Positions 1,150 through 20,000 of a stretch of 20,000 bases of DNA are shown here, in pieces (the stretch's first letter is position 1; each line of letters starts with the position of its first letter). Under the pieces are notes generated by a model, which saw only the letters and a program-made list of their open reading frames with translations, searched no databases and was not told the DNA's origin. Location of the stretch: IMG/VR virus record IMGVR_UViG_3300043411_002804; one strand, 5' to 3'. Made by a program: the position numbers and the translations under genes. The DNA comes from an uncultured virus (IMG/VR IMGVR_UViG_3300043411_002804) (Duplodnaviria; Heunggongvirae; Uroviricota; Caudoviricetes).

Positions 1150-1200
1150 TCTATAACTCCATATCTTTTTTTAGCAAATCTTGAATTAATATTTTACATT
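1150..1200 (-). promoter_or_regulatory. conserved phage promoter motif, copy 1
   Basis: Minus strand TGTAAAATATTAATTCAAGATTTGCTAAAAAAAGATATGGAGTTATAGA; TTGCTA-N16-TATAGA. Confidence 0.75.
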
Positions 1201-3679: not shown

Positions 3680-3730
3680 AATATATCTCTTTATCTTTTT
3701 TTAGCAATACCTGAATTAAAATTTTACATT
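3680..3730 (-). promoter_or_regulatory. conserved phage promoter motif, copy 2
   Basis: + strand atatatctctttatctttttttagcaatacctgaattaaaattttacatt matches the consensus. Confidence 0.75.
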
Positions 3731-5189: not shown

Positions 5190-5240
5190 TCCATATCATT
5201 TTATGTTTTTTTAGCTAAACCAAAAATAAAACTTTATATC
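5190..5240 (-). promoter_or_regulatory. conserved phage promoter motif, copy 3 (degenerate)
   Basis: TAGCTA-A6-CATAAAATGA-TATGGA; same 16-nt spacing, diverged upstream block. Confidence 0.5.
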
Positions 5241-5391: not shown

Positions 5392-5781
5392 TTATATTTT
5401 ATCCCCTCGTCTAATTTTTTCAGATAATGCTAACGCATAAGATTTTAAATCTCGAAGAGGATTCTGGACCTTTTTGGATAATGCCAACGCATAAAAACTT
5501 AAATTTTGAAGAGGATTCTGGCTAATCACAAGTTGTTGTGACCATAAACTCCATGCTGTAATTCGTAAACTCTTTTCGCCTTCTTTATGATTAAAAACAT
5601 TGCCTGGTGTTAATCCTTCTTCAAGAGACCAATCAATAATTTTTTTACAAGTTTCAGAGTCAAGCAATAACATGTGACCAACATTTTGGGCCAAATAAAT
5701 GCATGCATAACCATCTGCGGAAAAGGCCCTGTAAGTTGCATTACTATTACATAGCTCAACTTCAAAAATTGAATTCGGCAC
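5392..5781 (-). CDS. hypothetical protein with an 18-aa C-terminal tandem duplication
   Basis: GTG start abutting the upstream stop; QNPLQNLSFYALALSKKV / QNPLRDLKSYALALSEKI. Confidence 0.65.
   Translation of the reverse strand: MPNSIFEVELCNSNATYRAFSADGYACIYLAQNVGHMLLLDSETCKKIIDWSLEEGLTPGNVFNHKEGEKSLRITAWSLWSQQLVISQNPLQNLSFYALALSKKVQNPLRDLKSYALALSEKIRRGDKI
5423..5521. repeat. 54-bp-period imperfect tandem duplication
   Basis: gataatgc.aacgcataa...gaagaggattctgg at 5423-5467 and 5477-5521. Confidence 0.85.
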
Positions 5782-6360
5782 TTATGACTCTTCTTTAAAT
5801 GAGGCAATAGTTGTATTGCCAAAATTCGTCAAAGCAAGACATGGTTTATTTGGATCAAGGTACTCTTGACATTCAGTCAAACCCCATAGGTAGGATAAAG
5901 CTTTCTTATAGATAGAAATATCTGTAATATATCTATTTAAATCTGAATCTACATGTTGTAGGATCATAAACGGGGCATCATCCATCCATACCGTAAACAT
6001 GTCATTGTGAATCATTTTAATCGAAATGCTTGAATCTTCTGGAAGAGAATGTAATGTTGTAATCTCAGGAAATAGGCTACTAAGTTCGTGCCAGTTATAA
6101 ACTGGATCTTCCCTGAGGGTGGGAACCTTATAAAGATCACTCGCACAATAAATTGTTAGTGGTTCTGCTCGCTTTACGATCGAATTGCCATCAAACATGT
6201 GGGTAATGAAATCAAATGTTTTGATTTCAATATTTTCGAACACTTTTTCGTACCTCTTTTTTATATTTTCTATTGCATCTAAAGATGCACTTGTAGTAAG
6301 AATCATGCTTTCTTGATTGTTAAAACGAGTTCCTGTGTAATAGAGTGCATAAAAAGTCAT
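5782..6360 (-). CDS. hypothetical protein
   Basis: 192-aa ORF with GGAGA RBS. Confidence 0.75.
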   Translation of the reverse strand: MTFYALYYTGTRFNNQESMILTTSASLDAIENIKKRYEKVFENIEIKTFDFITHMFDGNSIVKRAEPLTIYCASDLYKVPTLREDPVYNWHELSSLFPEITTLHSLPEDSSISIKMIHNDMFTVWMDDAPFMILQHVDSDLNRYITDISIYKKALSYLWGLTECQEYLDPNKPCLALTNFGNTTIASFKEES

Positions 6361-6371
6361 TACTTATCTCC

Positions 6372-6563
6372 CTATTCCGTAAAACAATAGTAAATTTGAG
6401 ACAATACTCTTTCAGTATCAAATTTTGATTCCGGATCATTATCCTCATAATAATGAATCCGACATTTAAATTCGTTAGCTAACCTTTTACGCTCATTCGA
6501 AATAGCGTCATTAACCGCATTTTCAATCATTTTGGATATGGTATAATAATCTTCATCTGTCAT
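6372..6563 (-). CDS. small hypothetical protein
   Basis: ATG 6563 after AAGGTG. Confidence 0.65.
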   Translation of the reverse strand: MTDEDYYTISKMIENAVNDAISNERKRLANEFKCRIHYYEDNDPESKFDTERVLSQIYYCFTE

Positions 6564-6578
6564 AATGATCACCTTGTG

Positions 6579-6728
6579 CTAAAGAATGTTTTTAGGCCCA
6601 ACCTCAAAAATTGAGGCCCACCAATGAGTGATATATACACTCATTTCCTTTTTATGAAGATTATGTTCTTCTGCATAATCCATGTCAATCCAACACATCA
6701 AAGGTAAATCACAAAATGGATTATCCAT
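6579..6728 (-). CDS. 49-aa hypothetical protein (not in the ORF track)
   Basis: AGGAG RBS; MDNPFCDLPLMCWIDMDYAEEHNLHKKEMSVYITHWWASIFEVGPKNIL* fills the gap between neighbours. Confidence 0.55.
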   Translation of the reverse strand: MDNPFCDLPLMCWIDMDYAEEHNLHKKEMSVYITHWWASIFEVGPKNIL

Positions 6729-6747
6729 CTCAAACTCCTATGTTTTA

Positions 6748-6981
6748 CTAATCTGGGCAAAAAATCTCGTAAGGTTGAAGATTATGTTCTGACCACAACC
6801 ATGCAATTTCATAATGCTCTCTCATTCCGCTCTTATCAGAAATGAGAGACTTGCGCCATAAAAGCCATACATCCATCTCTTTACACAAGTGGTCATTAAT
6901 TCCACCACGAAACATTCCCTGAAAAATTTGATTTCGACAAAATGACTTAATTGACCAAACGTTGTTCTGATAAACAATCAT
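6748..6981 (-). CDS. hypothetical protein
   Basis: Start moved to ATG 6981 (MIVYQNN); the longer ORF call overlaps tRNA-Asn. Confidence 0.55.
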   Translation of the reverse strand: MIVYQNNVWSIKSFCRNQIFQGMFRGGINDHLCKEMDVWLLWRKSLISDKSGMREHYEIAWLWSEHNLQPYEIFCPD

Positions 6982-7032
6982 ATGTAACCTACCCATCAAC
7001 AATGTTTGTTTTTTTATTAAGGAATGTATAAA

Positions 7033-7104
7033 CGAGCCCACCTGGATTTGAACCAGGAAAAACAGATTAACAGTCTGTCGTGATACCAATTTCACCATGA
7101 GCTC
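7033..7104 (-). tRNA. tRNA-Asn(GTT)
   Basis: Acceptor GAGCTCA/TGGGCTC, anticodon arm ACAGA-CTGTTAA-TCTGT, T arm CCTGG-TTCAAAT-CCAGG, discriminator G; CCA not encoded. Confidence 0.93.
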
Positions 7105-7161
7105 TAAACATTAGATGTAGGGATTAAACCTACCAAACCTAATGTGATTCGGTTCCTTTAA

Positions 7162-7302
7162 GGGCCCCGTTGAAGCTGTTCTTCACTTAATTGTTCAAAC
7201 CATTCCTCTTGACCCACATCCCGGTCAGTCGACCGGGCCCCGTTGAAGCTTGGGAATAATAAACTCCATTAAGATACCATTCTTTTTCCCACATCCCGGT
7301 CA
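7162..7302 (+). CRISPR. CRISPR mini-array: two spacers, one full and two half repeats, no cas genes in window
   Basis: Full repeat 7213-7249 CCCACATCCCGGTCAGTCGACCGGGCCCCGTTGAAGC (37 bp; 7-bp stem CCCGGTC/GACCGGG, 4-nt loop). Exact last 15 nt at 7162-7176 and exact first 15 nt at 7288-7302. Spacers of 36 bp (7177-7212) and 38 bp (7250-7287). Orientation inferred from the TTGAAGC end. Confidence 0.85.
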
Positions 7303-7460
7303 ACTTACTACTTACTTAGTTCAACGTGTTTTTATGCGGGGGTTTTAAGGCGGAAGTTAACACTCTCACGAATTTTCCCGCCTAATTCCTACCGCTTACT
7401 TCCCCGGTAGGTGGGTTGATTTGATACATCTTGCATTACTCCTTTGCCATCTTACACCTA

Positions 7461-7510
7461 ACTATATCTCAGTATTTTTTTTTAGCAAATCCTGAATTAA
7501 GATTTTATAT
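7461..7510 (-). promoter_or_regulatory. conserved phage promoter motif, copy 4
   Basis: TTGCTA-A8-TACTGAGA-TATAGT; points toward the mini-array and tRNA-Asn. Confidence 0.8.
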
Positions 7511-7518
7511 CCTACCTT

Positions 7519-7827
7519 TTAGGAAGGCTTCAAATATGGATCCAATAAATACAGCTCATGTGGGGCTAATCGATGAGGATCTCTCCACTTAAATAGTGGT
7601 GCAACATCATCTTTGTTTAAGAGAAAAAAATTGATAGCATGATCATAAGCTTCGTATCTGTGTTTAGCCCTACCTATAAATGTTTTATAATCAGTATTAT
7701 TACATCTGATAAAAACCTGATACAGGAAAAGACCATATTCAGTATCATCTCCATAATGACCCCAATATTTACCTGAACGATCATATCCTTTTTTGTTAAG
7801 TTTAATTCTTTTTGATGTTGAATACAA
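7519..7827 (-). CDS. hypothetical protein
   Basis: 102-aa ORF with TTG start abutting the upstream stop. Confidence 0.6.
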   Translation of the reverse strand: MYSTSKRIKLNKKGYDRSGKYWGHYGDDTEYGLFLYQVFIRCNNTDYKTFIGRAKHRYEAYDHAINFFLLNKDDVAPLFKWRDPHRLAPHELYLLDPYLKPS

Positions 7828-8184
7828 TTAAGCCTTACCTTTATGGTTTGAGTTACCTGCATTTTCACCAATTTTTTTGAATTTCATACCAGACATAGAA
7901 GTCAAATGTGTCCCCAACTGACAACTTTTGCCTTTATTTTGACCAGAGTTATTTCTCCAAGCATTGGCATACTTTTCCCTACTCTTTTGGTCTTCAAAAG
8001 CTAAAAGCGTAATGCTAGCCATTTTGCCATCGCCTGAAGCAACACCCAAGTATTTAGGTGGAGATTGATCTCCACCTAATTCTTCAAGACAGTCCGGGCA
8101 TTCATTAATAAGTCCACCGGCCAATTTCTTTTGGCGGCTAAACAAATTGAATTCTGACTCACACCATTTACAAACTTTGATCAT
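7828..8184 (-). CDS. Zn-ribbon-containing hypothetical protein
   Basis: CKWC and CPDC pairs in the N-terminus. Confidence 0.7.
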   Translation of the reverse strand: MIKVCKWCESEFNLFSRQKKLAGGLINECPDCLEELGGDQSPPKYLGVASGDGKMASITLLAFEDQKSREKYANAWRNNSGQNKGKSCQLGTHLTSMSGMKFKKIGENAGNSNHKGKA

Positions 8185-8193
8185 TGGAAAACC

Positions 8194-8859
8194 TTAAATA
8201 CAGATAAGTTGAATAGTTTTCGCACTATTCACAAAAGTAATATTCATTTCTTGTTTAACTTGCCCACCACAATGATGAACGTGACCAAAGAAATGATGTG
8301 TTATTCTATGATTTTGGTAAGTCATAGCACTAGTTTGATTTGCTACCCCACAATGCTCCCCACAAGATTCGGCATCCAAGATGCCTGCTGGTGGTGCATG
8401 AGTAACAAGGATTGTAGGATCTGCATCCATTGCCTTCTGGACAATTAATGAGAAATCATGAGATTCTCCTGGCCATTCGCCTGCAATAAATGGAATTTCC
8501 CTATATCCCGAAAATCTTTGCTCTGCAAAGTCTACCGGACCCAAACTCAAATCAAAAGAAGAAGCGCAATATTTGGCTTCAACAAGCTTTTGATGCAAAG
8601 AAATAAAATCATGGTTTCCTGCAATCCAAATTACAGGCTTGCCTTTTAATTTATCCATAATAGATTGAGATTTATAAGACCACCATCTTTCCTGAAAAAG
8701 ACGCTCGTAAACTGGATCAATCTTACCCTGCGTCTTTGTTCCTCTACCATAATTTGGAAAGAAATCTCCTGTAATGAGCCATAGATCAAAATCTAAATCA
8801 CCAACCTTGGTAAGCTTTTTGTAAGAACCATGAAGATCGCTTGCATGAGCAATAATCAT
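8194..8859 (-). CDS. calcineurin-like metallophosphoesterase
   Basis: All five motifs present: SDLHG, ITGDF, AGNHD, VTHAPP, FGHVH; AAGGAGG RBS. Confidence 0.92.
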   Translation of the reverse strand: MIIAHASDLHGSYKKLTKVGDLDFDLWLITGDFFPNYGRGTKTQGKIDPVYERLFQERWWSYKSQSIMDKLKGKPVIWIAGNHDFISLHQKLVEAKYCASSFDLSLGPVDFAEQRFSGYREIPFIAGEWPGESHDFSLIVQKAMDADPTILVTHAPPAGILDAESCGEHCGVANQTSAMTYQNHRITHHFFGHVHHCGGQVKQEMNITFVNSAKTIQLICI

Positions 8860-8880
8860 TATTATACCTCCTTACCAATT

Positions 8881-9153
8881 CTACTCTAGAAATTCATAAC
8901 TGCCATAAAAATCAATGGAGAAATCTCCAAACAAATAGATTCTGATTTTTCCATCAATCATATCATACCAATCCACATGATGTTCAATTACCTTACATTT
9001 GATTGCAACATCACATTTATTATGTCTACATAAAATTGGAGATACATCAATAATTTCTACTGTATCCCATAACGATTTGTACTTTTCACCAACTTTCACT
9101 TGGTGAGTAGTTGTGTCATCAATCACATGTTCGATTTCTTGCTCATACCACAT
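8881..9153 (-). CDS. hypothetical protein
   Basis: 90-aa ORF with GAGG RBS. Confidence 0.7.
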   Translation of the reverse strand: MWYEQEIEHVIDDTTTHQVKVGEKYKSLWDTVEIIDVSPILCRHNKCDVAIKCKVIEHHVDWYDMIDGKIRIYLFGDFSIDFYGSYEFLE

Positions 9154-9487: not shown

Positions 9488-9537
9488 GACATAACTCATT
9501 ATCTTTTTTTAGCAAAACCTGAATTAAAATTTTATAC
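9488..9537 (-). promoter_or_regulatory. conserved phage promoter motif, copy 5
   Basis: TTGCTA-A6-GATAATGAGT-TATGTC with upstream TATAAAATTTTAATTCAGG. Confidence 0.75.
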
Positions 9538-11699: not shown

Positions 11700-11724
11700 A
11701 ACAACTCCATTCAATTTAATTTAA

Positions 11725-11795
11725 TGGGCATGGTGGAAATCGAACCCACACGTTAAAAAACATCCAAATTTGAGTCGGACCTGGCTACCACGCCC
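11725..11795 (-). tRNA. tRNA-Leu(CAA)-like gene lacking the D arm (pseudo-tRNA or atypical tRNA)
   Basis: Acceptor GGGCGTG/CATGCCC plus A, anticodon arm TCCGA-CTCAAAT-TTGGA, long variable arm GTT-TTTT-AAC, T arm GTGGG-TTCGATT-TCCAC; only GTAGCCAGG between acceptor and anticodon stems. Confidence 0.7.
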
Positions 11796-11917
11796 TTGAA
11801 TGATCATCCACGCACACATACACAAATATTTTTAAATATATCTCAATGCAGGAGTTTTTCCTCTTAAAATCTACGCTTCGCTTCGTAACATTATCTACGT
11901 TACTCAATTTAATAGAA

Positions 11918-11991
11918 TGGCACCCCTGGGATTCGAACCCAGACTATACGGGATTTGAAGCCGTCTCCTCTACCAGTTGGGATAGGATGCC
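11918..11991 (-). tRNA. tRNA-Leu(CAA), short variable loop
   Basis: Acceptor GGCATCC/GGGTGCC plus A, D arm TCC-CAACTGGTAGA-GGA, anticodon arm ACGGC-TTCAAAT-CCCGT (31-39 mismatch), T arm CTGGG-TTCGAAT-CCCAG. Confidence 0.85.
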
Positions 11992-12308: not shown

Positions 12309-12357
12309 ACTATATCCAAATATCTTTTTTTAGCAAAACTTGAATTATTATTTTACA
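12309..12357 (-). promoter_or_regulatory. conserved phage promoter motif, copy 6
   Basis: TTGCTA-N16-TATAGT with upstream TGTAAAATAATAATTCAAG. Confidence 0.8.
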
Positions 12358-12366
12358 ACTGACTTA

Positions 12367-12604: not shown

Positions 12605-12654
12605 GTCATAACCCAACATATTTTTTTAGCAAACCCTGAATTAAAATTTTATAT
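12605..12654 (-). promoter_or_regulatory. conserved phage promoter motif, copy 7
   Basis: + strand cataacccaacatatttttttagcaaaccctgaattaaaattttatat. Confidence 0.75.
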
Positions 12655-14875: not shown

Positions 14876-14926
14876 AATTATAACTATTTATCTTTTTTTA
14901 GCAAAACCTAAATGTTTATTTTATAT
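14876..14926 (-). promoter_or_regulatory. conserved phage promoter motif, copy 8
   Basis: TTGCTA-A6-GATAAATAGT-TATAAT (perfect -10). Confidence 0.85.
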
Positions 14927-16570: not shown

Positions 16571-16620
16571 ATCATATCTAGATATCTTTTTTTAGCAAAG
16601 CCTAAATGTTTATTTTATAT
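16571..16620 (-). promoter_or_regulatory. conserved phage promoter motif, copy 9
   Basis: TTGCTA-A6-GATATCTAGA-TATGAT; upstream block nearly identical to copy 8. Confidence 0.8.
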
Positions 16621-18456: not shown

Positions 18457-18506
18457 TGATATAACTCAATATTTTTTTTTAGCAAACCCCGAATTAAAAT
18501 TTTTCA
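18457..18506 (-). promoter_or_regulatory. conserved phage promoter motif, copy 10
   Basis: TTGCTA-A8-TATTGAGT-TATATC with upstream AAAATTTTAATTCGGGG. Confidence 0.75.
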
Positions 18507-18553
18507 CATACGATTAGCAGCCAGCCTCTCATTTTGTTAGAGGTTAAGAAGAC

Positions 18554-18817
18554 TTAGGATCTACGCTTTGAGAGATTACTCTCAACTGTAGCACATCCAT
18601 TTCCATAACCATCTCCATCTCCAAATCCATATCCATATCCATATCCAGATCCTTCTCCAGATCCAGATCCATATCCTTCTCCAGATCCATCTCCATAACC
18701 ATCTCCATCTCCAAATCCAGATCCATAACCATCTCCATCTCCAAATCCAGATCCAAATCCATATCCATTTCCATTTCCCACAGGCATTTTTTCCATGTTA
18801 AACCTCTCAATTTCCAT
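18554..18817 (-). CDS. (Gly-X)n repeat protein, cassette 1
   Basis: Leader (MEIERFN)MEKMPVG, G-X core, tail ATVESNLSKRRS; alternative ATG at 18796. Confidence 0.65.
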   Translation of the reverse strand: MEIERFNMEKMPVGNGNGYGFGSGFGDGDGYGSGFGDGDGYGDGSGEGYGSGSGEGSGYGYGYGFGDGDGYGNGCATVESNLSKRRS

Positions 18818-18828
18818 GTTAATCTCCC

Positions 18829-19191
18829 TTAGGATCTACGCTTTGAGAGATTACTCTCAACTGTAGCACGTCCATATCCAGATCCATATCCATATTCATA
18901 TCCTTCTCCAGATCCAAATCCATATCCATCTCCATATCCATATCCATATCCATATCCATATCCATATCCATATCCATTTCCATATCCATATCCAGATCCA
19001 TCTCCATATCCATCTCCATTTCCATTTCCAAATCCAAATCCATTTCCATACCCATCTCCATTTCCAGATCCATATCCATTTCCAGATCCATACCCATCTC
19101 CATTTCCAGATCCAAATCCATCTCCATATCCCACAGGCATTTTTTCCATGTTAAACCTCTCATTTTCCATGTTAAACCTCTCATTTTCCAT
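18829..19191 (-). CDS. (Gly-X)n repeat protein, cassette 2
   Basis: Same leader and tail; in-frame ATGs at 19191, 19170 and 19149 from a duplicated 21-bp unit. Confidence 0.65.
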   Translation of the reverse strand: MENERFNMENERFNMEKMPVGYGDGFGSGNGDGYGSGNGYGSGNGDGYGNGFGFGNGNGDGYGDGSGYGYGNGYGYGYGYGYGYGYGDGYGFGSGEGYEYGYGSGYGRATVESNLSKRRS

Positions 19192-19202
19192 GTTAATGAC
19201 CC

Positions 19203-19712
19203 TTAGGATCTACGCTTTGAGAGATTACTCTCAACTGTAGCAGATCCCTTTCCATATCCCTTTCCAGATCCCTTTCCATATCCAAATCCAGATCCATTTC
19301 CATATCCATATCCATTTCCATTTCCATATCCATATCCAAATCCATATCCATATCCAGATCCATATCCATATCCATATCCATATCCATATCCATATCCATT
19401 TCCATATCCATATCCATTTCCATTTCCATATCCATATCCAAATCCATATCCATATCCAGATCCATATCCATATCCATATCCATATCCATATCCATATCCA
19501 TATCCATTTCCATATCCATATCCATTTCCATTTCCATATCCATATCCAAATCCATATCCATATCCAGATCCATATCCATATCCATATCCATATCCATATC
19601 CATATCCATTTCCATATCCATATCCATCTCCATTTCCATATCCCTCTCCATTTCCATATTCAGAACCATATCCCACAGGCATTTTTTCCATGTTAAACCT
19701 CTCATTTTCCAT
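19203..19712 (-). CDS. (Gly-X)n repeat protein, cassette 3 (longest, Gly-Tyr rich)
   Basis: Same leader and tail; ATGs at 19712 and 19691; core has a threefold higher-order repeat. Confidence 0.65.
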   Translation of the reverse strand: MENERFNMEKMPVGYGSEYGNGEGYGNGDGYGYGNGYGYGYGYGYGYGSGYGYGFGYGYGNGNGYGYGNGYGYGYGYGYGYGYGSGYGYGFGYGYGNGNGYGYGNGYGYGYGYGYGYGSGYGYGFGYGYGNGNGYGYGNGSGFGYGKGSGKGYGKGSATVESNLSKRRS

Positions 19713-19723
19713 GTTAATCACCC

Positions 19724-19984
19724 TTAGGATCTACGCTTTGAGAGATTACTCTCAACTGTAGCAAATCCATATCCAGATCCAAATCCATTTCCATATCCAT
19801 CTCCATCTCCAAATCCATATCCATATCCATATCCATTTCCATATCCAGATCCATATCCAGATCCATATCCATATCCATTTCCATTTCCATTTCCAGATCC
19901 AAATCCATATCCATATCCATTTCCATTTCCATAGCCATCTCCATATCCAGATCCATATCCATTTCCCACAGGCATTTTTTCCAT
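19724..19984 (-). CDS. (Gly-X)n repeat protein, cassette 4
   Basis: GAGG RBS before MEKMPVG at 19984; same tail. Confidence 0.65.
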   Translation of the reverse strand: MEKMPVGNGYGSGYGDGYGNGNGYGYGFGSGNGNGNGYGYGSGYGSGYGNGYGYGYGFGDGDGYGNGFGSGYGFATVESNLSKRRS

Positions 19985-20000
19985 GTTAAACCTCATTTTT

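What the first reader, a model, noticed from the sequence alone, without database searches (positions are those of the whole stretch)
7177..7287. The two spacers read as abutting fragments of a single protein-coding target
Seen: the reverse complement of spacer 2 (AAAAAGAATGGTATCTTAATGGAGTTTATTATTCCCAA) translates to KEWYLNGVYYSQ, and that of spacer 1 (TCAAGAGGAATGGTTTGAACAATTAAGTGAAGAACA) to QEEWFEQLSEE. Joined at the shared Gln they give KEWYLNGVYYSQEEWFEQLSEE. The base before CAA differs (C vs T), suggesting different alleles or paralogues. Recalled and unverified: this resembles the C-terminus of the 'HREDGPA...KEWYLNG' repeat proteins often multicopy in large phages. Inference: both guides focus on one conserved gene family, in a competitor phage or in this phage itself. 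If the array is read on the + strand, both crRNAs are antisense to that mRNA, as RNA-targeting type III or a silencing role would require.
Basis: partly seen in the sequence, partly recalled or inferred. Interest (0 to 1): 0.9.

Follow-up and report, generated by a model that had tools for sequence, protein, structure and literature searches.

The report
Phage mini-CRISPR with two abutting spacers
A large uncultured phage carries a tiny CRISPR array copied from a bacterial type I-G system, and its two guides come from overlapping pieces of the conserved tail of a repeat-protein gene that such phages keep in many copies, so it is probably a tool or a decoy in phage-phage or phage-host conflict.

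Summary
At 7162-7302 lies a two-spacer CRISPR mini-array. It has one intact 37-nt repeat flanked by two 15-nt repeat halves.

- **Repeat origin:** the repeat is identical to a 16-copy array beside type I-G cas genes in a Myxococcota MAG. Its geometry (7-bp stem, then 4 + 8 nt) fits the published I-G processing rule, so crRNA sense is the window's + strand.
- **Target:** read in reverse complement, spacer 1 encodes the constant C-terminal tail, and spacer 2 the last repeat unit, of HREDGPA/WYLNG (DUF6745, MORN-like) proteins. These occur as tandem multicopy genes in large phages.
- **Abutment:** in 14 of 14 homologous gene copies the two segments sit in the register given by a 4-nt overlap. Metagenome contigs from the phage's own samples run from spacer 1 straight into spacer 2 without the repeat.
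- **No perfect target found:** the commonest copies match spacer 1 at 35/36. Their depth tracks the phage's, so they are probably in its own genome.
- **Unsupported:** type III RNA targeting. The linked system is DNA-targeting I-G.
- **Complication:** the phage's own promoters would transcribe the array antisense.

Best reading: a captured mini-array that guides the host Cascade against related phages (0.45). Rivals are an inert relic or an antisense or decoy RNA.

The parts
7162..7176 (+). Left half repeat: the last 15 nt of the repeat (3 stem bases + CCCC + the 8-nt handle GTTGAAGC). It has no hairpin.
   Evidence: (family D2)
7177..7212 (+). Spacer 1 (36 nt, GC 0.33). Its reverse complement encodes QEEWFEQLSEE, the constant C-terminal tail of the target family.
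7213..7249 (+). The only intact repeat (37 nt): 7 nt, a 7-bp stem with a 4-nt loop, then 4 + 8 nt. It is identical to the repeat of a type I-G array in a Myxococcota MAG.
7250..7287 (+). Spacer 2 (38 nt, GC 0.26). Its reverse complement encodes KEWYLNGVYYSQ, the last repeat unit plus linker of the target family. Its first 4 nt overlap the last 4 nt of spacer 1 in the target.
7288..7302 (+). Right half repeat: the first 15 nt of the repeat, cut inside the palindrome. The host array's truncated repeat (17 nt kept) is cut at nearly the same place.
   Evidence: (family D4)
7108..7145 (.). Hairpin between the array and tRNA-Asn. It is a multicopy element: summed depth 91 against a baseline of 30 in run X1.
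7033..7104 (-). tRNA-Asn (GTT), downstream of the array on the phage's coding strand.
7303..7460 (-). Non-coding, GC-richer stretch (GC 0.44 for 7303-7422) between the promoter-like element and the array. It holds a multicopy hairpin element at 7364-7415. Positions 7138-7422 are absent from a paralogous junction (joint 7137->7423).
7461..7510 (-). Promoter-like element (TTGCTA-16-TATAGT), one of 10 same-oriented copies in the window. It would drive minus-strand transcription through the array, in antisense to the crRNA, into tRNA-Asn.

Best explanation
This is a virus-borne CRISPR mini-array of bacterial type I-G origin, sitting in the tRNA region of a large AT-rich phage.

Shown:
- It has one intact I-G repeat, two spacers and two outer 15-nt repeat halves.
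- The two spacers are two protospacers that overlap by 4 nt on the same strand. They lie in the same order as in the target.
- They come from the 3' end (last repeat unit plus constant C-terminal tail) of an HREDGPA/WYLNG (DUF6745, MORN-like) gene.
- That family is multicopy in large phages and abundant in the phage's own samples.

Inferred origin:
- A type I-G host acquired spacer 2, and then spacer 1 next to it, as primed adaptation would do.
- A repeat-spacer-repeat-spacer piece then entered the phage by a break inside the repeat palindrome. The two outer halves together make one repeat that lacks 7 nt.

Inferred function:
- If transcribed on the + strand, host Csb2 cuts the central repeat.
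- That would yield a spacer 1 RNA with the 3' hairpin and a spacer 2 RNA with the 8-nt GUUGAAGC handle.
- Host Cascade and Cas3g would then be directed against the multicopy gene of co-infecting related phages, giving superinfection exclusion.
- The carrier's own copies would escape through a mismatch at spacer position 2 and a different flank on the PAM side.
For: - **Repeat identity:** the repeat is 37/37 identical to 16 copies in Myxococcota MAG contig L002. That contig carries Csb1, Csb2, Cas3g and the Cas3-extension protein.
- **Repeat geometry:** 7-bp stem + 4 + 8 nt. This fits the published rule that Csb2 cuts 4 nt 3' of a 7-bp stem and leaves an 8-nt handle (PMC9638904, passages).
- **Host array orientation:** the host array decays at its right end, which agrees with + orientation.
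- **Spacer lengths:** 36 and 38 nt lie inside the host range of 34-40 nt. Spacer GC of 0.33 and 0.26 is like the phage and unlike the host spacers at 0.62-0.81.
- **Target family and register:**
- **Contiguous form:** joints 7212->7254 in X2 and X3, plus the loose ends.
- **Own-copy mismatch:** the commonest copies stop matching at 7179. They read TC where the spacer has TG, then go on with a different tail (EED... rather than EEQ...).
- **No host target:** the host MAG holds neither spacer at up to 3 mismatches, and one family protein used as query found no match there.
- **Stability:** the array shows no differences in runs X1, X2 and X3, which come from three studies. X1 may be the source of the window.
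- **Precedent:** viral mini-arrays of one or two spacers, with host-identical repeats, that mostly target related viruses while the carrier's own locus is mutated (PMC6858448 passages; PMC11656645 passages).
Against: - **Transcription direction:** all 10 copies of the window's promoter-like element, both tRNAs and nearly all ORFs point along the minus strand. The element at 7464-7510 would therefore transcribe the array as the complement of a crRNA.
- **No + strand promoter:** no convincing one lies upstream. The single 9/12 match at 6951-6978 is within chance expectation.
- **Processing problems:** spacer 1 has no upstream hairpin for 5' processing. Spacer 2 has no 3' hairpin for Csb2, which stays bound there in I-G.
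- **No perfect target:** none was found in IMG/VR, INPHARED, JGI metagenomes or the four laid runs.
- **PAM mismatch:** the inferred flanks (CTC, ATC) are not the TTN PAM reported for another I-G system.
- **Host doubt:** the host MAG is 68% GC and the phage 37%, so the real host is uncertain.
- **No conservation signal:** X1-X3 are essentially one strain, so identity across them says nothing about selection.
Confidence: 0.45

Rival explanations
1. Inert relic. A fragment of a host array, excised by repeat-repeat recombination and joined into the phage at a break in the repeat palindrome, sits as recent passenger DNA. It makes no functional crRNA.
For: - Both outer repeats are truncated inside the palindrome and have no hairpin.
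- The host contig also has an insertion of about 4.5 kb inside a repeat at nearly the same point, leaving 17 and 14 nt. The palindrome therefore looks fragile.
- The array lies antisense to phage transcription.
- It lies inside a 285-nt stretch that is absent from a paralogous junction (joint 7137->7423).
- No cas genes were found among the 44 window ORFs scanned.
Against: - Two of two captured spacers match the phage's own kind of gene. None of the 16 main-array host spacers measured is AT-rich (GC 0.62-0.81), and the 2 distal host spacers and the 2 host-type spacers seen in X3 and X4 also read GC-rich. A random capture would seldom give that.
- The GC-rich repeat and both halves are still letter-perfect in a 37% GC genome.
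- The pieces kept are exactly those that end up in mature crRNAs.
Confidence: 0.27
2. RNA anti-CRISPR. Transcribed from the phage's minus-strand promoter, the locus gives an RNA complementary to the host I-G repeat and to host crRNAs against the constant tail of the phage's multicopy gene. Such an RNA could titrate those guides or block Csb2 processing. Alternatively, as a Racr-like mimic in + sense, the repeat could sequester Csb2 and Cascade subunits.
For: - The promoter-like element at 7464-7510 is one of 10 same-oriented copies. Eight of the 10 lie 7-60 nt upstream of a minus-strand ORF start. This copy has no ORF downstream, only the non-coding stretch, the array, a hairpin and tRNA-Asn.
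- The retained half repeats extend complementarity to pre-crRNA beyond the spacers.
- The near-identical (35/36) multicopy sequence is probably in the phage's own genome, which would make host guides against it dangerous to the phage.
- Racrs and viral crRNA-like RNAs are established (PMC10651486 passages; bioRxiv 10.1101/2024.10.29.618823 abstract).
Against: - No phage antisense-to-crRNA inhibitor turned up in one full-text search.
- Racrs are solitary repeats. The Racr paper's own finder would file a full repeat with nearby partial repeats as a mini-array.
- There are no RNA data.
- No acr genes were recognised nearby: PHROGs and Pfam found none among 44 ORFs.
Confidence: 0.18
3. RNA-level or binding-only action on the family's transcripts or genes. 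Either the crRNAs, being antisense to the mRNA, are used by a type III system, or Cascade binds the phage's own imperfect copies without cutting and so tunes the gene family.
For: - In + sense both spacers are antisense to the target mRNA.
- Own-genome copies appear to be near-matches, not perfect ones.
- crRNA-like RNAs with partial matches do regulate genes in other systems (abstract).
Against: - The only cas genes linked to this repeat are type I-G.
- Cmr2 scored 21 bits against a cut-off of 79. Csm1 had no hit in the incomplete MAG.
- Two spacers landing on one strand is a 1-in-2 event.
- The transcription direction argues against any crRNA at all.
Confidence: 0.07

Closest known systems
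Virus-borne mini-CRISPR arrays (Saccharolobus portogloboviruses SPV1/SPV2; Medvedeva et al. 2019, PMC6858448; review PMC11656645)
   Same: One or two spacers. Repeats identical to a host array. No cas genes nearby. Spacers match genes of related viruses, while the carrier's own locus is mutated.
   Different: - Those arrays have complete repeats and a host-like leader with a promoter. Here both outer repeats are 15-nt halves and no leader was recognised.
- The array lies antisense to the phage's transcription.
- It is bacterial type I-G rather than archaeal.
- The two spacers overlap by 4 nt in one multicopy gene.
RNA anti-CRISPRs (Racr; solitary repeat units; Camara-Wilpert et al. 2023, PMC10651486)
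   Same: A host-type CRISPR repeat carried by a phage without cas genes. It could bind the Cas6-type subunit.
   Different: Racrs are single repeats without genuine spacers. This locus has two target-derived spacers, and that paper's finder would class it as a mini-array.
Viral crRNA-like regulatory RNAs (Cracr; bioRxiv 10.1101/2024.10.29.618823, abstract only)
   Same: Phage-borne mini-array-like units that load host Cas proteins.
   Different: Cracr spacers match host cas or toxin promoters. Here the spacers match a phage gene family and nothing in the host MAG.
Type I-G CRISPR-Cas (Thioalkalivibrio sulfidiphilus effector; Shangguan et al. 2022, PMC9638904)
   Same: A repeat of 36-37 nt with a 7-bp stem and 4 + 8 nt after it. 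The identical repeat sits beside Csb1, Csb2 and Cas3g in a MAG.
   Different: Only a fragment of an array is present, in a phage and without cas genes. The flanks inferred here (NTC) do not fit the TTN PAM cited there.
CRISPR arrays of huge phages
   Same: Very large uncultured phages carrying arrays, sometimes without cas genes, with spacers against other phages.
   Different: Comparison rests on recall. No such array with this repeat was found in IMG/VR.

Membership tests
Virus-borne CRISPR mini-array | Repeat identical or nearly identical to a cellular CRISPR array | tested here: met
   37/37 identity to 16 repeats in MAG contig L002. Contigs of repeat, GC-rich spacer and repeat also occur in runs X3 and X4.
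Virus-borne CRISPR mini-array | Only one or two spacers, located in a viral genome without adjacent cas genes | tested here: met
   There are two spacers. The window is phage-like: T4-type RNA ligase, tRNAs, jumbo-phage homologues. No cas family was found among the 44 ORFs scanned. The rest of the genome was not available.
Virus-borne CRISPR mini-array | Spacers match related viruses or other mobile elements | tested here: inconclusive
   The match to a phage gene family is clear. Near-identical contigs are present in the same samples. No perfect protospacer was found, and which genome holds the copies is unresolved.
Virus-borne CRISPR mini-array | Leader or promoter giving transcription in crRNA sense | tested here: not met
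   No convincing + strand promoter was found. The phage promoter-like element points the other way. Consensus scans cannot exclude an unrecognised promoter.
Virus-borne CRISPR mini-array | Production of mature crRNA and interference through host Cas proteins | not testable with these tools
   No RNA run was listed. This needs an experiment.
Type I-G CRISPR repeat | A repeat of about 36 nt with a 7-bp hairpin, followed by 4 nt and an 8-nt 5' handle | tested here: met
   The fold is 7 nt, a 7-bp stem with a 4-nt loop, then 12 nt. The rule comes from PMC9638904.
Type I-G CRISPR repeat | Genomic association with Csb1, Csb2 and Cas3g | tested here: met
   TIGR02570 7.8e-20, TIGR02165 2.3e-82, TIGR02621 4.1e-229 and NF049934 1.9e-96, all on the contig that carries the identical repeat. 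Cas8g and Cas1/Cas4 were not seen on that contig. One cas1 lies on another short contig.
Racr (solitary repeat unit RNA anti-CRISPR) | A solitary repeat without flanking spacers or partial repeats | tested here: not met
   There is a full repeat plus two partial repeats within 40 nt, and two genuine spacers.
Type III (RNA-targeting) guide | Cas10-containing effector in the host that uses this repeat | tested here: inconclusive
   Cmr2 scored 21.4 bits against a cut-off of 79.4. Csm1 had no hit. The MAG is incomplete and may not be the real host.
HREDGPA/WYLNG repeat proteins (Pfam DUF6745; MORN-variant-like), the target family | Tandem units W[YF]LNGxxHREDGPAxE..G.K with the constant tail ...SKEEWFEQLTEEQQEK | tested here: met
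   - 17 distinct proteins from 8 contigs.
- DUF6745 at 6e-10 and MORN_2 weak.
- 7986 relatives with E <= 0.001 among the 8000 candidates scored.
- The tail is present in 5 of the 120 listed.
- The spacer peptides align to the last unit plus the tail.

The most novel reading that the evidence does not exclude
The locus may be expressed only from the phage's own minus-strand promoter, as an 'anti-crRNA'. That RNA would be the exact complement of the host type I-G repeat. It would also complement the two host guides that hit the constant tail of a gene the phage itself carries in dozens of copies. By pairing with pre-crRNA or crRNA it would disarm the guides most dangerous to this phage, or block Csb2 processing in general. 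This would be an antisense, sequence-specific RNA anti-CRISPR built from a stolen piece of the host's immune memory.
Probability: 0.15. Interest if true: 0.85.

Novelty: new member of a known kind. Interest (0 to 1): 0.6.

Why it matters
- **Host link:** it ties a very large, AT-rich, uncultured freshwater and groundwater phage to a type I-G CRISPR system through an identical repeat.
- **What the immunity aims at:** the constant C-terminal cap of a hyper-expanded MORN-like gene family. One guide there meets many copies, so escape by point mutation should be hard.
- **Adaptation signature:** two spacers that overlap by 4 nt, on one strand and in target order, are a rare natural record of how neighbouring spacers are taken up. 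This could be priming or a shared precursor fragment.
- **Testable question:** the conflict between crRNA sense (+) and phage transcription (-) lets one ask directly whether phage-borne array fragments act as guides, decoys or nothing.

Tried and rejected
**Searches for the spacers or repeat elsewhere**
- Exact spacers and the exact repeat in IMG/VR: 0 hits.
- blastn of each spacer against INPHARED: only chance-level pieces (E >= 1). These included 21-23-nt matches of spacer 1 to nrdB/nrdF, which I set aside once the family match was found.
- Megablast of 6000-9000 against INPHARED: no match.
- Degenerate pattern for EWYLNGVYY: 0 hits in IMG/VR and in JGI metagenomes.
- The 19-nt repeat half in IMG/VR: 1 hit. 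It is a chance match inside GC-rich coding DNA with no hairpin.
- Self-target inside the window: none at up to 3 mismatches or by motif.

**Searches for the phage or its relatives**
- Relatives of the phage through its RNA ligase in IMG/VR: 1 weak, irrelevant locus.
- Whole genome of the window: none is held.

**Protein-level searches**
- Search with a family member, and with its tail region only: neither gave a protein with the exact spacer peptides.

**Host-side checks**
- Host-array spacers against INPHARED, to derive a PAM: no match.
- The cas-proximal 'mini-array' of the host contig was first considered a cas-regulating crRNA-like unit. I rejected that. It is the distal end of the same array, split by an insertion of about 4.5 kb inside a repeat.
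- Cas10 families in the host MAG: nothing over the cut-off.

**Other**
- No RNA holder was listed for the stretch.
- In run X4, 7092-7163 and 7308-7355 have no cover, so nothing can be said about the array in that relative.
- Rfam found nothing in 7105-7520 at E <= 1.
- Earlier scan notes by place and by sequence: nothing.

Full report
**What is there**

Positions 7162-7302 read as follows:
- GGGCCCCGTTGAAGC (15 nt)
- a 36-nt spacer (7177-7212)
- the 37-nt repeat CCCACATCCCGGTCAGTCGACCGGGCCCCGTTGAAGC (7213-7249)
- a 38-nt spacer (7250-7287)
- CCCACATCCCGGTCA (15 nt)

There is therefore one intact repeat. Each outer 'repeat' is only a half: the left keeps the last 15 nt and the right keeps the first 15 nt. 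The intact repeat folds as 7 nt, a 7-bp stem with a 4-nt loop, then 12 nt. The two halves have no hairpin.

The window is phage-like and AT-rich (GC 0.37). Nearly all ORFs and both tRNAs (Asn at 7033-7104, Leu at 11918-11991) lie on the minus strand. It encodes a T4-type RNA ligase and a metallophosphoesterase. One protein is 43-47% identical to proteins of 230-640-kb jumbo and huge phages. No whole genome is held for it. Neither IMG/VR nor INPHARED holds a close relative.

**The repeat is a bacterial type I-G repeat**

A scan of one genome per prokaryote species with 30 nt of the repeat found one contig, from a Myxococcota MAG (L002). It has 16 perfect 37-nt copies at the contig start, with spacers of 34-40 nt.

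The same contig encodes Csb1/Cas7g, Csb2 (a Cas5-Cas6 fusion), Cas3g and the I-G Cas3-extension protein.

Passages of PMC9638904 state that:
- in type I-G, Csb2 cuts 4 nt 3' of a 7-bp stem and leaves an 8-nt 5' handle;
- Csb2 stays on the 3' hairpin;
- the 5' handle contacts only Cas7.1;
- a TTN PAM was reported.

Our repeat has exactly stem + 4 + 8 nt (CCCC + GTTGAAGC) on the window's + strand. The reverse strand would leave only 3 nt. The host array also decays at its right end: a repeat with 2 mismatches, then a degenerate one. The crRNA sense is therefore the window's + strand.

Host-type contigs of repeat, GC-rich 37-nt spacer and repeat also occur in runs X3 and X4 beside the phage (table 5c).

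**The spacers and their target**

Neither spacer recurs in the window. A degenerate pattern for EEWFEQL[S/T]EE hit one 211-kb IMG/VR contig (4 loci) and 7 JGI metagenome contigs (14 loci).

These loci hold tandem sister genes. There are 17 distinct proteins of 96-255 aa. They are built from units W[YF]LNGxxHREDGPAxE..G.K and end in ...K.W.LN[GD]xxxSK[EG]EWFE[QR]LTEEQQEK.LF.SEV. Pfam gives DUF6745 (6e-10) and a weak MORN_2 match. The wider repeat family is very large: 7986 proteins with E <= 0.001 among the 8000 candidates scored. Only 5 of the 120 listed carry this tail.

In 14 of 14 distinct gene copies, the spacer-2-like segment lies 34 nt upstream of the spacer-1-like segment, which is a 4-nt overlap. 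Nucleotide identities are 25-30/36 for spacer 1 and 21-26/38 for spacer 2. These marine genes are therefore relatives of the target and not the target itself.

One result counts against over-reading this. The spacer 2 peptide scores about as well on internal repeat units, and the abutting placement was best in only 6 of 17 proteins. Two details do favour the last unit:
- the conserved Ser four residues after NG;
- both spacers encode Gln (CAA) where all 14 homologues have Lys.

**Direct proof of abutment**

Four public runs hold the phage or relatives: X1 freshwater (possibly the source), X2 groundwater, X3 freshwater and X4 activated sludge. All are kept as Logan contigs. They were laid on 6900-7600 at 80% likeness or more.

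- Contigs join 7212 to 7254, skipping 41 nt (the 37-nt repeat plus the 4-nt overlap). This is seen in X2 (depth 11.7) and X3 (depth 3.72).
- Further joints, 7212->7263 to 7266, come from more diverged copies.
- Loose ends show the junction letter by letter. After ...CTCTTG comes GGAATAATAAATCCCGTTAAGACACC (X3). After ...CTCTTGA comes GAATAATTGACCCCATTAAGATACC (X2), GAATAATTAATA (X3) or GAATAATGAACTCCATTAAGAAACC (X4).
- Translated, these copies read W[YF]LNGV[NH]YSQEEW... and, in one contig, WYLNGVLYPQEEW....

**How close are the copies, and whose are they?**

In all four runs, 3-4 contigs stop matching at 7179 and continue with TTTTAGATTCCAGATTGCTTCTAATTTATC. The target there reads TC where spacer 1 has TG. 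That makes 35/36 identity, with the mismatch at spacer position 2 next to the handle, and the protein continues ...SEED KLEAIWNLK instead of ...SEEQ....

On the other side, 4-5 contigs in each of X1 and X2 stop at 7285 and continue with the reverse complement of GPAIE.PNGY.

The phage's own contigs break inside spacer 1: records end at 7208 and restart at 7182. I take this as shared exact 31-mers with other copies, which is an inference about the assembler. Spacer 2 is spanned without a break, so it has no such exact copy in X1 or X2.

Summed depth, against the phage baseline of 30 (X1), 11.8 (X2) and 3.7 (X3):

| Region | X1 | X2 | X3 |
|---|---|---|---|
| Spacer 1 | 1580 | 563 | 29.9 |
| Spacer 2 | 278 | 109 | 7.7 |

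That is about 50x and 9x the baseline in both X1 and X2. Single paralogue contigs have depths of 30.8 and 32.5 in X1, and 10.5, 10.2 and 11.7 in X2. This fixed proportion across samples from different studies suggests that many copies sit in the phage's own genome. This is an inference, not a demonstration.

Earlier notes of this scan describe HREDGPA families of 8 to more than 30 genes in other very large uncultured phages. Those notes are leads only.

**Origin**

Two spacers on one strand, overlapping by 4 nt and in the same order as in the target, would be very unlikely if they were drawn independently from a genome of several hundred kb.

The simplest account rests on established knowledge of primed adaptation in type I systems and was not tested here. 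A host acquired spacer 2 and then spacer 1 from the DNA immediately on its PAM side. One literature search for overlapping or adjacent protospacers together with primed adaptation gave a single paper, which I did not read.

The two outer halves add up to one repeat lacking 7 nt of the palindrome. That is what a looped-out repeat-spacer-repeat-spacer circle, opened in the hairpin, would give.

The host contig shows that the same spot is fragile. An insertion of about 4.5 kb (IS21-like, AAA and MBL-fold genes) splits one repeat into 17 and 14 nt. It leaves a two-spacer distal remnant with the same half-full-degenerate look. I first took that remnant for a cas-regulating unit and then rejected the idea.

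The 16 main-array host spacers have GC 0.62-0.81, and the phage's two have 0.33 and 0.26. The phage's spacers were therefore taken from AT-rich phage DNA. The MAG is at best a relative of the real host.

**Transcription**

A 47-nt element (TTGCTA-16/17-TATAnT with an A/T-rich upstream part) occurs 10 times in the window, always in the same orientation. Eight of the 10 copies lie 7-60 nt upstream of a minus-strand ORF start.

The copy at 7464-7510 is followed on the minus strand by no real ORF. Instead it is followed by, in order:
- a GC-richer structured stretch;
- the array, in antisense;
- a hairpin (7108-7145);
- tRNA-Asn.

A paralogous junction without 7138-7422 exists elsewhere (joint 7137->7423, at about twice the phage depth).

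On the + strand only one chance-level promoter-like site was found, at 6951-6978. No RNA run was listed.

**Mechanism**

I commit to a captured type I-G mini-array that, if read on the + strand, arms the host's Cascade and Cas3g against the multicopy gene of related phages, with the carrier's own copies protected by the position-2 mismatch and a different flank (0.45). This has precedent in virus-borne mini-arrays (PMC6858448 and PMC11656645, passages).

The rivals are:
- an inert, recent relic (0.27);
- an RNA anti-CRISPR, either antisense or Racr-like (0.18; PMC10651486 passages; Cracr abstract; one search found no antisense precedent);

The flanks inferred in + sense are CTC before spacer 2 and ATC before spacer 1. 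They share NTC but not the TTN cited for another I-G system. The PAM of this system could not be derived.

**Verdict**

The finding is correct, and better founded than its author could know. The two spacers are abutting, 4-nt-overlapping pieces of one gene family's constant tail. As a kind of object it belongs with known viral mini-arrays. Three things remain unusual and unexplained: the truncated architecture, the probable self-family target and the antisense placement.

Noticed in passing
window 1153-1199, 3683-3729, 5193-5239, 7464-7510, 9491-9537, 12312-12358, 12608-12654, 14880-14926, 16574-16620, 18461-18507: Ten same-oriented copies of a 47-nt promoter-like element. On the minus strand it reads TAAAAT..TTAATTCAGG.TTTGCTAAAAAAAGATA....TATAT. 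Eight of the ten lie 7-60 nt upstream of a minus-strand ORF. In the metagenomes the element is highly multicopy (summed depth 835 against 30 in X1).
   Followed up: partly
window 18500-20000: A strongly skewed (GC skew down to -0.77) hexamer and dodecamer repeat, CCATATCCATATCC... Two overlapping minus-strand frames stay open across it. It would encode Gly/Tyr/Asp-rich low-complexity proteins.
   Followed up: no
window 11711-11751 versus 11904-11944: A 41-nt stretch 193 nt upstream of tRNA-Leu is 73% identical to the 3' part of that tRNA. It may be a second, degenerate tRNA-like gene that ARAGORN did not call.
   Followed up: no
window 7364-7415 and 7108-7145: Two short hairpin-forming elements flanking the array are themselves multicopy in the metagenomes: a 52-nt contig at depth 82, and a summed depth of 91, against a baseline of 30 in X1. 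A contig joins 7137 directly to 7423. The array and 7303-7422 therefore look like an insertion of about 285 nt relative to a paralogous junction.
   Followed up: partly
L002 1188-5712 (Myxococcota MAG contig): The host's type I-G array is split inside one repeat (17 nt and 14 nt remain) by about 4.5 kb. The inserted DNA carries an MBL-fold protein with a weak match to an anti-phage 6A-MBL family, an AAA protein and an IS21-like transposase N-terminus. The array and the cas operon converge on each other.
   Followed up: partly
window 5417-5521: A tandem 51-nt duplication (84% identity, spacing 54) inside the ORF 5392-5781 on the minus strand.
   Followed up: no
window 7971-8080 (minus strand): A sub-threshold Rfam match to the DUF805 RNA motif (25.9 bits against a gathering score of 51.1, E 0.57), with a 49-nt insertion. 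Probably chance.
   Followed up: no
L003-L006 (IMG/VR contig of 211 kb, positions about 204.8-211 kb) and L007-L009, L017, L018 (a 21-kb metagenome contig): At least 5-8 HREDGPA/WYLNG genes stand head to tail, with 2-10 repeat units each and a near-identical 3' tail. In one search the other two frames of the same strand also stay open across them.
   Followed up: partly
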